A stretch of DNA of 8,999 nt from IMG/VR virus record IMGVR_UViG_2693429524_000011. One strand, written 5' to 3'. This document shows, piece after piece, positions 7,559-8,999 of this stretch. The stretch is from a virus (taxonomy: Duplodnaviria; Heunggongvirae; Uroviricota; Caudoviricetes). Each line of letters starts with the position of its first letter. Position 1 is the stretch's first letter. Position numbers and translations under genes: made by a program. The notes beneath the pieces are model-generated. The model did no database searches, had not been told where the DNA came from, and worked only from the letters and a program-made list of their open reading frames with translations.

Positions 7559-8203
7559 TTGAACTTCCCCGGACAAAATCGACTCATCTAAAGATTTACA
7601 GCTCTTTTTATTATCAATATGTTAAAAGTAAAATAAACAGATGTTCAATAACACGAATACAAAAACGTGCTGAAATTCAATGAATCCATTTCTGTGTCAT
7701 CAATTAATAGTGATAAACATCCGGCTTCTTCCACCATCGCACCGGACAGGCGGCTATGAGGGGACAACGCCGCGCTCCGTTAACGCGGTAAACCCCGGTG
7801 TGTATCGTTTTTGATTATCCCCGCACACTCGCGCAGAAGGAATTCCCCGTCGGGCTACGGTCATGGTTAATGCGGGAATACGGCGACGATACAGCGCATA
7901 ATGTGTCAGGCTTGAATACCTTTATCCGTTAAAAGGGATATCAGTTAAGTTATCCCGTGTAGGGTATAAGCCATTGTCGAGACCACTCATTGAATGGCCT
8001 CTGCAATAACCGATGTCTTTCCATCAGTCCGCCACCACAAAGAATCTTTTTTGCCTTAAGGCTGGAGCTTCATCTTTCAGTGGCTGCCAGTGTTATTTCC
8101 CCACTTACTGGCTTGGGTTGTTTCGCTGTACTGCCGTAACTGGTTGCCAAGAATAAATTCTGGTTTCATTATCAAGCCCACCCGTAGATAGGCTTTGTCA
8201 TGG

Positions 8204-8491
8204 CTACTTCTTCAGAAATGATTCGATGAATTCACGTCGGGGATGACGATAGTTCAGAATATCTTCTGGCATCCTCATAAAGCGGTTGTTGCCGTCTTTG
8301 GCAGTAACAAAACAGCTGTGAACTCCGCAGACATCCGTTTTTATTGTGTCGCTATACTCAAAAAGCAACTGAGCCATCTTCTCTTGCCATTCTGGCGGCA
8401 TAGCCTCCATGAATACTCGCGGCATCACGCAGAACGGCGCATGCGTAAGACCAAACCACAGTTGCAGGTCTTTACGATATTCTTCATCCAT
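8204..8491 (-). CDS. Hypothetical 95-aa prophage cargo protein with a possible His/Cys metal-binding motif
   Basis: ORF-track protein MDEEYRKDLQLWFGLTHAPFCVMPRVFMEAMPPEWQEKMAQLLFEYSDTIKTDVCGVHSCFVTAKDGNNRFMRMPEDILNYRHPRREFIESFLKK. It is in late-operon orientation between the Rz remnant and cos, with a weak AAAGG Shine-Dalgarno. Contains H17, C21 and C55-x2-H58-x-C60. I do not recognise the family. Confidence 0.55.
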   Translation of the reverse strand: MDEEYRKDLQLWFGLTHAPFCVMPRVFMEAMPPEWQEKMAQLLFEYSDTIKTDVCGVHSCFVTAKDGNNRFMRMPEDILNYRHPRREFIESFLKK

Positions 8492-8509
8492 CGTCTTTAC
8501 CTTTGTTGC

Positions 8510-8535
8510 AATAAAAAGCCCCGCGAATGCGAGGC
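8510..8535 (-). terminator. Candidate intrinsic terminator on the minus strand, downstream of the Rz remnant
   Basis: Minus-strand RNA GCCUCGC-AUUC-GCGGGGC followed by UUUUUAUU: a 7-bp stem with one G-U pair and a 4-nt loop. The plus-strand equivalent has a C-A mismatch and no U-tract, so the signal is strand-specific. Confidence 0.45.
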
Positions 8536-8709
8536 TAAATCCTGGTATTTGTAATGACTGGCTCTTATCTCAACGCAGCCCCTTACCGCGCGCAAGATGC
8601 TCAATATCAAGCATCAGCAATGAGATGTTTAATCTGGATTCACTCCAGAAGTGTTCACCACCCTGTCTACAGAGCCAGATGTGAAGAATGATAAGTAAAA
8701 TTATCGCTA

Positions 8710-8875
8710 TCATCGAAGGCATTGCGTCCTGATGTATTCCTGAAGCGTTCTCAGTGCTGTTTGGTCGCTGATGATTCCGTCCCGGATACCGAGAACGTTT
8801 CGTCCAGCAACTGGAGAGAGTTCGACGGTGGCATCATTGCCCATGCCGGAGGCGCTGGAGGCTTCGGCTGAGGAT
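8710..8875 (-). pseudogene. Rz: C-terminal fragment of the Rz i-spanin, truncated at its 5' side by the IS insertion
   Basis: Minus-strand translation from the IS boundary: SSAEASSASGMGNDATVELSPVAGRNVLGIRDGIISDQTALRTLQEYIRTQCLR*. It resembles the lambda Rz C-terminus (...RLITMQKQLEGTQKYINEQCR*). Stop at plus 8710-8712. Confidence 0.7.
8751..8875 (-). pseudogene. Rz1: C-terminal fragment of the Rz1 o-spanin, embedded in Rz in the +1 frame; signal peptide and lipobox missing
   Basis: Minus-strand +1-frame translation PQPKPPAPPAWAMMPPSNSLQLLDETFSVSGTESSATKQH*, proline-rich like the lambda Rz1 stretch ...CVKPPPPPAWIMQPPPDWQ.... Stop at plus 8751-8753. Confidence 0.6.
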
Positions 8876-8999
8876 TGAACCGCCCCGGAAATCCTGGAGA
8901 CTAAACTCCCTGAGAAAGAGGTAAACAGGATGACTAAAAATACTCGTTTTTCCCCCGAAGTCCGTCAGCGGGCGATTCGTATGGTTCTGGAAAGTCAGG
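8876..8999 (+). mobile_element. Left end of an IS3-family insertion sequence (IS629/IS1203-like); continues past the window end
   Basis: Terminal sequence TGAACCGCCCCGGAAATCCTGGAGACTAAACTCCCTGAGAAAGAGGTAAACAGG precedes the orfA start; this matches my memory of the IS629 left inverted repeat region. The element abuts the truncated Rz/Rz1. Confidence 0.8.
8930..8999 (+). CDS. IS3-family transposase OrfA, N-terminal 23 codons (partial)
   Basis: Translation MTKNTRFSPEVRQRAIRMVLESQ... from ATG at 8930, with GAGG about 10 nt upstream. Recognised as the IS629/IS1203 OrfA N-terminus. Confidence 0.8.
   Translation, partial: MTKNTRFSPEVRQRAIRMVLESQ

What the first reader, a model, noticed from the sequence alone, without database searches (positions are those of the whole stretch)
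8204..8491. 95-aa orphan protein with an H-x3-C ... C-x2-H-x-C motif
The ORF is in late-operon orientation, immediately after a strand-specific terminator. It has no family I can name and contains a compact set of potential metal ligands (H17, C21, C55, H58, C60). It could be a small zinc-binding regulator, or an anti-defence or host-takeover factor, as is typical of cargo at this position.
Basis: inference. Interest (0 to 1): 0.5.

Follow-up and report, generated by a model that had tools for sequence, protein, structure and literature searches.

The report
Uncharacterised phage accessory gene, not zinc-binding
The 95-codon ORF is a real, strongly conserved accessory gene of a defective lambda-like prophage and belongs to a large unnamed family of phage proteins, but the histidines and cysteines that suggested zinc binding are not conserved in relatives, and its function remains unknown.

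Summary
The ORF (window 8204-8491, minus strand, 95 aa) and its H17/C21/C55/H58/C60 pattern exist as described, just downstream of an intrinsic terminator, in late-operon orientation. It is a genuine gene: median dN/dS is 0.07, and 72 of 5426 complete E. coli genomes carry it. It is not an orphan. It matches PHROG 3527 (E=6.6e-55), and a profile search finds 1383 cluster representatives in phages of Proteobacteria, none named or in Pfam. The zinc idea fails: the five positions match the query in only 8-27% of 297 family members, 200 have no Cys/His at any of them, and 123 domains have no cysteine. The real signature is WFGLS...PRV...MPxEWQ...NYRHP. The AlphaFold model (pLDDT 79) has no significant match among solved structures. 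The protein is soluble, mildly acidic and not transmembrane. The domain is always C-terminal, either alone or behind many unrelated N-terminal extensions. In enterobacterial phages it is a 314-bp cassette fixed after the lysis genes, ahead of four different packaging modules, and it swaps with a Rha-family gene between identical flanks. My best guess, which is inferred, is a dispensable docking domain acting on a conserved partner during lytic growth. Interest is modest.

The parts
8204..8491 (-). ORF95 coding sequence (95 codons plus TAG stop); RefSeq WP_000343114.1 'hypothetical protein'. It consists entirely of one uncharacterised phage domain (PHROG 3527).
8499..8503 (-). Shine-Dalgarno-like AAGGT; the GG lies 8 nt upstream of the ATG.
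   Evidence: read directly from the sequence
8510..8536 (-). Intrinsic-terminator-like hairpin (8 pairs, 6 G-C, 4-nt loop) followed by TTTTTATT. It is shared with more than 2000 E. coli genomes whether or not ORF95 follows it.
8193..8506 (-). Mosaic cassette carrying ORF95: a 15-nt leader, the ORF and an 11-nt trailer. A Rha-family gene replaces it between the same flanks in E. coli 1344_LBHALD.
8570..8722 (-). Conserved 50-aa ORF with a TM-like N-terminus that overlaps the end of Rz. In related phages it ends a constant 82 nt upstream of ORF95. It is context, not shown to be functionally linked.
8710..8817 (-). Remnant of the Rz-type spanin ('lysis protein', N-terminus missing), truncated by the IS1203 insertion.
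6174..6719 (-). Nu1-type small terminase subunit, the next late-operon module downstream. In other phages carrying ORF95, three other packaging modules take its place.

Best explanation
SHOWN: ORF95 is an intact, translatable gene of a defective lambdoid prophage and is under strong purifying selection. It encodes a soluble, mildly acidic 11.5-kDa protein (pI 5.9). The protein is a single copy of a widespread, unnamed phage domain with the signature L-W-x-W-F-G-L-S ... P-R-V-x-M ... M-P-x-E-W-Q ... L-L-x-E-Y ... In enterobacterial temperate phages the gene is a 314-bp cassette placed directly after the terminator that follows the lysis genes. It has no recognisable promoter or terminator of its own. 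It is dispensable, being present in 1.3% of complete E. coli genomes although the flanking terminator occurs in more than 2000, and a Rha-family gene replaces it between identical flanks.

INFERRED: the gene is transcribed only as part of the Q-antiterminated late transcript that reads through the upstream terminator, so the protein is made late in lytic growth and not in the lysogen. In this prophage, IS1203 lies between it and the late promoter, which probably reduces or abolishes expression.

INFERRED, weakest step: the domain is always C-terminal, occurs alone or behind dozens of unrelated N-terminal extensions, and its invariant residues are mostly core hydrophobics plus a small polar cluster (R25, Q36, N80, Y81, R82, H83). 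From this I suggest it is a docking or binding module that recognises one conserved partner, either a host or phage protein or a nucleic acid. The stand-alone form would then act by occupying or modulating that partner as a non-essential fitness, host-takeover or anti-defence factor.
Confidence: 0.4

Rival explanations
1. Small zinc-binding regulator: H17/C21 and C55/H58/C60 coordinate a structural zinc ion, and the protein acts as a zinc-finger-type regulator.
For: The five residues are present in the window protein. C21, C55, H58 and C60 are kept in most close enterobacterial homologues at 73% identity or more, so a clade-specific site is not formally excluded.
Against: Family-wide conservation at these positions is 8-27%. 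Of 297 members, 200 have no Cys/His at any of the five positions, and 123 domains lack cysteine altogether. H17 varies even among close relatives (H/Y/R/N), and the 95%-identical P0001 has C60F. No zinc-finger or HNH Pfam family matches. The domain evidently folds without these residues in most members.
Confidence: 0.04
2. Anti-defence or host-takeover effector: the domain binds and inhibits a conserved host protein, such as an immune sensor or a housekeeping hub. This is a specific version of the best explanation.
For: The gene is small, mildly acidic, dispensable and patchily distributed in a variable cargo slot. In metagenomic phages it lies in accessory regions that also hold Lar restriction alleviation, Tad6 and DNA methyltransferases. 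It is restricted to phages and prophages.
Against: No known anti-defence family matches and no fold match exists. The neighbours are inconsistent and mostly unannotated. Late-operon expression in lambdoids comes after the time when most incoming-DNA defences act. Nothing has been tested experimentally.
Confidence: 0.2
3. DNA-packaging accessory factor that acts with terminase, analogous in position to the HNH endonuclease found upstream of the small terminase gene in HK97-like phages.
For: The gene lies immediately upstream of TerS in Vibrio phages ValSw3-3 and Seahorse. It is the last late-operon gene before the packaging module in many enterobacterial loci and lies 1.3-2.4 kb upstream of TerS in several distant loci.
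Against: It occurs with at least four unrelated packaging modules while staying at a fixed offset from the lysis module. Most prophages with the same terminases lack it. In other phages it sits in early or replication regions, or divergently inside head modules. There is no HNH or nuclease signature.
Confidence: 0.07
4. Lysis-associated protein (lysis timing, a spanin or holin modulator, or a membrane protein), suggested by its tight linkage to the 3' end of the lysis cassette and by the 'TMD' notes in the Sasha and Solent phage records.
For: A constant 222-nt offset from Rz and 82-nt offset from the 50-aa ORF in every >=96%-identical enterobacterial locus with a recognised upstream flank. Phage records annotate a TMD at residues 10-29 or 'putative transmembrane protein'.
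Against: The hydrophobic stretch is far below TM threshold in every family member and has an invariant Pro-Arg in its middle. There is no signal peptide or lipobox. The same lysis cassette and terminator occur without the gene in more than 2000 genomes. Distant members are not next to lysis genes.
Confidence: 0.05

Closest known systems
PHROG 3527 (with PHROGs 33008 and 10794): catalogued phage protein families of unknown function
   Same: A full-length match of ORF95 to the C-terminal ~92 positions of the PHROG 3527 profile (E=6.6e-55), with weaker matches to the C-terminal parts of the other two. The longer family members I retrieved match the same profile region.
   Different: The PHROG profiles are 178-233 positions long because they include N-terminal extensions that ORF95 lacks. 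The PHROG entries carry no annotation, so membership says nothing about function.
Rha-family phage regulatory protein (Pfam Phage_pRha), occupying the same late-operon slot in P22-like and lambdoid prophages
   Same: It occupies exactly the same genomic slot. In E. coli 1344_LBHALD a Rha-family gene sits between the same upstream terminator flank and the same downstream flank as ORF95. Both are dispensable late-operon cargo.
   Different: There is no sequence similarity (BLASTP E=0.61). Rha is 172 aa and its cassette has a longer leader. Any functional analogy is unproven.
HK97 gp74-type HNH endonuclease upstream of the terminase genes (from my own knowledge of the literature)
   Same: It is a small protein encoded just before the packaging genes, and its His/Cys content superficially recalls an HNH or zinc motif.
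   Different: There is no HNH motif, no conserved His/Cys and no Pfam HNH match. ORF95 is not tied to any one terminase type.
Modular lambdoid accessory proteins such as the DUF551 and Ead/Ea22-like families (architecture analogy, from my own knowledge; DUF551 genes are annotated in this same prophage)
   Same: A short conserved domain combined with highly variable, often repeat-containing partner segments, encoded among small non-essential genes. An Ead/Ea22-like neighbour (below Pfam's threshold) lies next to a distant family member.
   Different: No sequence relationship was detected, and those families are also functionally uncharacterised, so the analogy gives no mechanism.

Membership tests
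Zinc-finger / zinc-ribbon / HNH-type metal-binding proteins | A set of three or four Cys/His metal ligands conserved across homologues | tested here: not met
   The five candidate positions are conserved in 8-27% of 297 members; 200 members have none as Cys/His, and 123 domains have no Cys (alignments).
Zinc-finger / zinc-ribbon / HNH-type metal-binding proteins | A sequence match to a curated metal-binding family model | tested here: not met
   No Pfam hit for ORF95 at E<=1. No zinc-finger or HNH family among marginal hits for 48 diverse members. NCBIfam gives nothing.
Zinc-finger / zinc-ribbon / HNH-type metal-binding proteins | Bound metal ion in the purified protein | not testable with these tools
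   This needs ICP-MS or a colorimetric zinc assay on recombinant protein.
PHROG 3527 (uncharacterised phage family) | A significant match to the family HMM | tested here: met
   E=6.6e-55, 187.5 bits, residues 1-95 against profile positions 139-230 of 233.
Moron (independently transcribed insertion in a phage operon, in the sense of Hendrix and colleagues) | Presence/absence or replacement polymorphism between genes that are otherwise adjacent in related phages | tested here: met
   A 314-bp cassette between flanks shared with a Rha-carrying prophage. The terminator flank is in more than 2000 genomes but the ORF in only 72.
Moron (independently transcribed insertion in a phage operon, in the sense of Hendrix and colleagues) | Its own promoter and its own downstream terminator | tested here: not met
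   There is no sigma-70-like site in the 25 nt between the terminator and the ATG, or elsewhere upstream on the minus strand within the scanned region, and no terminator-like site just downstream of the stop codon. This was a consensus scan only, so weak promoters could be missed.
Membrane / lysis proteins (holin, antiholin, spanin) | A transmembrane segment, signal peptide or lipobox | tested here: not met
   The maximum 19-residue Kyte-Doolittle mean is 0.95 for ORF95, the family median is 0.92, and no member reaches 1.6. An invariant P24-R25 lies inside the hydrophobic stretch.
Rha family (Phage_pRha) | Sequence similarity to Rha proteins | tested here: not met
   BLASTP E=0.61 against the Rha-family protein in the same slot, and no Pfam Phage_pRha hit.
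Known anti-phage defence system components (PADLOC) | A match to a defence-protein HMM | tested here: not met
   No PADLOC hit for ORF95 or for three long family members at E<=1.

The most novel reading that the evidence does not exclude
The WFGLS...PRV...MPxEWQ...NYRHP domain is a previously undescribed fold that phages of Proteobacteria use as a universal C-terminal docking module for one conserved host hub protein or nucleic-acid structure. The many unrelated N-terminal heads would be effectors delivered to that hub, and stand-alone copies such as ORF95 would be competitive inhibitors, for example of a host immune or DNA-transaction factor.
Probability: 0.15. Interest if true: 0.65.

Novelty: new member of a known kind. 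Interest (0 to 1): 0.3.

Why it matters
As posed, a possible small zinc-binding regulator, the finding does not hold, and that alone saves follow-up effort. What remains is a typical but clean example of phage 'dark matter'. The domain has more than a thousand cluster-level relatives, strong purifying selection, a sharp sequence signature, no Pfam entry, no name in any source and no detectable structural relative. It sits in a precisely delimited swap slot of well-studied lambdoid and P22-like phages that are easy to manipulate genetically, such as HF4s. If its partner were identified, hundreds of modular phage proteins that share this C-terminal domain could be annotated. There are many such uncharacterised PHROG families, so the interest is modest.

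Tried and rejected
1. Zinc or HNH motif: rejected on conservation and the absence of family matches.
2. Truncated gene: the PHROG 3527 match covers only the C-terminal 40% of the profile, which suggested a 5'-truncated fragment. I rejected this because most relatives are stand-alone proteins of 90-115 aa, the median N-terminal overhang is 10 aa, and the ORF has its own RBS.
3. Function from fusion partners: twenty long forms gave no convincing Pfam domain; the only hit above Pfam's cutoff was an NlpC/P60 N-terminus in P0072. Their N-termini match only PHROGs of unknown function, and 54 of the 68 long extensions match no other.
4. MazG-like nucleotide pyrophosphohydrolase link: the N-terminus of P0111 looked MazG-like to me, and an upstream neighbour in L009 has a weak dGTP_diPhyd_N hit. 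PDB phmmer and Pfam gave no support, so I dropped it.
6. Transmembrane protein, as annotated in the Sasha and Solent phage records: rejected.
7. Homology to the Rha gene in the same slot: rejected.
8. Conserved gene neighbour as a functional clue: seven metagenomic look-ups, seven annotated phage regions and 80 viral loci showed no consistent partner beyond the lysis-to-packaging junction position in enterobacterial phages.
9. Literature: no paper mentions the accession, the PHROG id or the HF4s protein. The HF4s, epsilon34 and phage L genome papers do not discuss this gene.
10. Rfam: no known RNA anywhere in the window.
11. The AFDB Foldseek library was unavailable.

Full report
**Where the window comes from**

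- an IS1203 element (its transposase gene starts at 8930 on the plus strand), which has removed the endolysin and most of Rz
- an Rz remnant (8710-8817)
- a 50-aa ORF (8570-8722)
- a terminator-like hairpin (8536-8517, then TTTTTATT)
- ORF95 (8491-8204)
- about 600 bp with no annotated gene
- a 46-aa hypothetical gene
- a YlcI/YnfO gene on the plus strand (7100-7285)
- Nu1 (6719-6174)
- the large terminase (6199-4274), which abuts a C-terminal fragment of tail protein L, then K, I and J

The ORF is on the minus strand, has 95 codons, and contains H17, C21, C55, H58 and C60 as stated. The hairpin was picked up by the terminator scan. The 86-nt region that includes it (8485-8570, minus strand) folds at -22.4 kcal/mol, z = -3.1 against shuffles. 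An AAGG Shine-Dalgarno lies 8 nt before the ATG.

**It is a real gene**

I extracted the homologous ORFs from 80 viral contigs. They gave 25 distinct DNA sequences besides the window's own. Nei-Gojobori dN/dS has a median of 0.07 over the 160 pairs with dS above 0.1, and ranges from 0.02 to 0.26. The exact protein is on 432 public contigs and is called 'hypothetical protein' everywhere. It is present, always full length and chromosomal, in 72 of 5426 complete E. coli genomes, including O55:H7 RM12579 and O104:H4 2009EL-2071.

**It is not an orphan, but it has no name**

- Pfam, NCBIfam and PADLOC give nothing.
- Scanning 48 diverse members one by one against Pfam at E<=1 gives no consistent family.
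- PHROG 3527 matches at E=6.6e-55, and PHROGs 33008 and 10794 match more weakly. All three are of unknown function, and all match through the C-terminal part of their profiles.
- A word-indexed search found 43 close relatives, mostly 95-105 aa, in Enterobacterales.
- A full HMMER profile search of 1.84 billion representatives found 1383 proteins at E<=1e-3 and 397 at E<=1e-10.
- A second profile search found 1021 proteins at E<=1e-5, none of which has a Pfam domain or an informative name.
- tblastn finds the domain in sequenced phages of Escherichia (HF4s, 98%), Klebsiella, Salmonella, Cronobacter, Vibrio, Pseudomonas, Stenotrophomonas, Acinetobacter and Brevundimonas.

**The zinc-binding interpretation fails**

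Among close relatives H17 already varies (H/Y/R/N), and the 95%-identical cluster representative has Phe at position 60. I aligned 297 family members to a family HMM. The table shows how often the query residue is kept at each proposed ligand position.

| Position | Query residue kept | Most common alternative |
|---|---|---|
| H17 | 8% | Tyr 62%, Arg 27% |
| C21 | 15% | Leu 66% |
| C55 | 9% | Asp 35% |
| H58 | 27% of the 135 sequences with a residue (gap in 162) | His is the most common residue where one is present; Asp 12% next |
| C60 | 19% | Thr 47% |

Two hundred members have no Cys or His at any of the five positions, and 123 domains contain no cysteine at all. The positions that are conserved are L9, W12, F13, G14, L15, S16, P24, R25 (100%), V26, M28, M31, P32, W35, Q36, M39, A40, L42, L43, E45, Y46, V62, P75, N80, Y81, R82, H83 (79%) and P84. 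That is a hydrophobic core plus a small polar cluster.

**Physical character and fold**

The protein is 11.5 kDa with pI 5.9. The median net charge of the domain across the family is -1. Two phage records annotate the hydrophobic stretch at residues 9-31 as a transmembrane segment. Its best 19-residue Kyte-Doolittle mean is only 0.95, no family member reaches 1.6, and the stretch contains the invariant Pro-Arg. The protein is therefore soluble.

An AlphaFold2 model built on 29 close sequences was poor (pLDDT 58). With 48 diverse sequences it reached pLDDT 79.4 and pTM 0.59: short helices, one long helix at 33-49, a small beta-hairpin and a C-terminal helix. Results of the fold searches:
- Foldseek against the PDB had a best E-value of 3.
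- A profile search of PDB sequences found nothing meaningful.
- In BFVD the only real matches (three at E<=0.001, five at probability 1.00) are uncharacterised family members, three of them named as from Caulobacter phages or a Myoviridae metagenome.
- The AFDB library was not available.

**Architecture**

In 296 retrieved proteins the domain is essentially always C-terminal: the median C-terminal overhang is 3 aa and the 90th percentile is 17 aa. The median N-terminal overhang is 10 aa. Sixty-eight proteins have N-terminal extensions of 50-392 aa. These are very diverse: 54 match no other extension, and the largest cluster has eight repeat-rich proteins. One protein is a tandem duplication of the domain.

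The extensions have no convincing Pfam domain and match only PHROGs of unknown function. One extension (P0060) is homologous to a separate gene that lies two ORFs upstream of a family member in locus L097 (E=8e-14). At least some fusions therefore join neighbouring accessory genes.

**Genomic position**

In enterobacterial temperate phages the position is strikingly regular. In every >=96%-identical locus where a seed protein recognised the upstream flank, the gene follows the lysis cassette at a fixed offset: Rz ends 222 nt upstream and the 50-aa ORF 82 nt upstream, all on the same strand. Many loci at 70-90% identity show the same lysis-then-packaging order. The downstream packaging module is one of at least four kinds (HF4s annotation):
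- lambda Nu1/A
- DUF1441 plus a different TerL
- P22-like Gp49/TerS/PBSX-type TerL
- a Seahorse-like TerS

A three-way DNA alignment shows that the upstream flank, up to and including the terminator T-run, is shared with prophages that lack the gene. The downstream flank (CCTATCTACGGGTGGGC...) resumes 11 nt after the stop codon. In E. coli 1344_LBHALD a Rha-family gene lies between exactly these two flanks. The cassette is therefore window 8193-8506, 314 bp, and contains only an RBS and the ORF. The Rha-family protein and ORF95 are unrelated in sequence. The terminator flank is found in more than 2000 E. coli genomes, but the ORF in only 72.

Outside this group the context varies:
- directly upstream of TerS in two Vibrio phages
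- first gene of a small divergent operon inside the head module of the Sasha and Carvaje phages
- the C-terminus of a 344-aa protein in the early region of Pseudomonas phage Psp6
- in metagenomic phages, among small unannotated genes near Lar, GapR and DUF6378, glycosyltransferases and Tad6, PDDEXK/AAA_24/ParB-methylase/PolA, or ERF and YqaJ
- between replication/RuvC-like genes (identified only by my reading of the translations) and TerS/TerL in distant relatives

The neighbours there have no Pfam domain apart from one Ead/Ea22-like hit below Pfam's threshold. No neighbour is conserved across the family.

**Expression (inferred)**

No sigma-70-like site lies between the terminator and the ATG, and no terminator follows the gene. 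It is therefore not a classical self-contained moron. The simplest reading is that it is transcribed only by Q-modified polymerase reading through the upstream terminator. The phage L genome paper notes that such intra-operon terminators are common in lambdoid late operons and that their roles are unknown (PMC8022706). In this particular prophage IS1203 lies between the gene and the late promoter, and the prophage has lost its head genes and most tail genes. The gene is probably poorly expressed or silent here, even though its sequence is intact.

**What it most likely does**

Nothing here gives a function. The gene is dispensable and swappable, it is found only in phages and prophages, and the domain is always C-terminal behind interchangeable heads. 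The invariant residues look like a folded core plus one small polar patch, and there is no conserved acidic catalytic residue. On that basis I favour a binding or docking module that recognises one conserved partner. The stand-alone form would modulate that partner during lytic growth. An anti-defence or host-takeover role is one specific version of this.

This is inference, and I give the whole statement a confidence of 0.4. The confidence is high for the parts that are shown and low for the mechanism. The rivals (a clade-specific zinc site, a packaging accessory and a lysis modulator) each have specific evidence against them, listed in the rival explanations.

**Verdict**

The metal-ligand interpretation is refuted. 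The 'cargo in a variable late-operon slot' idea is supported. The gene is a member of a catalogued but wholly uncharacterised phage family. Interest is modest (0.3).

Noticed in passing
window 8570-8722 (minus strand): A 50-aa ORF (RefSeq WP_053878044.1, hypothetical) with a TM-like N-terminus (19-residue Kyte-Doolittle mean 2.07) overlaps the 3' end of Rz. It precedes the terminator in more than 2000 E. coli genomes and ends a constant 82 nt upstream of ORF95 in related phages. Its function is unknown. It lies downstream of Rz, not embedded in it as Rz1 normally is.
   Followed up: partly
window 4042-6199 (minus strand): The large terminase gene (4274-6199) directly abuts a C-terminal fragment of minor tail protein L (4042-4269). 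This implies one deletion that removed the portal, head and most tail genes, so the prophage is defective.
   Followed up: partly
window ~8820-8999 and beyond (L001 11231-12444): An IS1203 (IS3-family) element is inserted in the lysis cassette. It truncates Rz and a DUF1327 gene and removes the endolysin, and it separates ORF95 from the late promoter region.
   Followed up: partly
window 7577-8192: About 600 bp between ORF95 and the next annotated minus-strand gene has no annotated feature and no ORF longer than 52 aa on the late-operon strand. It is conserved at about 96% identity in many E. coli prophages. Rfam finds nothing there.
   Followed up: no
window 7100-7285 (plus strand): A YlcI/YnfO-family (DUF3950) gene lies on the strand opposite to the late operon, between ORF95 and Nu1, as in the K-12 cryptic prophages DLP12 and Qin (the comparison is from my own knowledge).
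   Followed up: no
L097 4659-5021, compared with protein P0060: A separate 120-aa ORF two genes upstream of a family member is homologous (E=8e-14) to the N-terminal half of P0060, in which it is fused to the ORF95-type domain. This is a fusion/neighbour link between two unknown families.
   Followed up: partly
protein P0049 (198 aa, metagenomic): It contains two tandem copies of the ORF95-type domain (residues 15-102 and 106-197).
   Followed up: no
L003 (Salmonella phage Sasha gp32) and the Salmonella phage Solent record: The deposited annotations call the homologue a transmembrane protein ('TMD 10-29'). Hydropathy analysis of the whole family does not support this.
   Followed up: yes
window 312-1763 (plus strand): A 483-aa ORF lies antisense to the tail-tip protein J gene. 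It is almost certainly a spurious antisense reading frame, not a gene.
   Followed up: no
L097, L087, L085 and several long family proteins (P0141, P0156, P0185): Short motifs such as 'ETPATDAF(L/M)AEVRAQG' and 'ERAAFEAW...ALAQPSP' recur in several different small accessory proteins of the same phage regions. This suggests shuffling of sub-domain modules among these genes.
   Followed up: no
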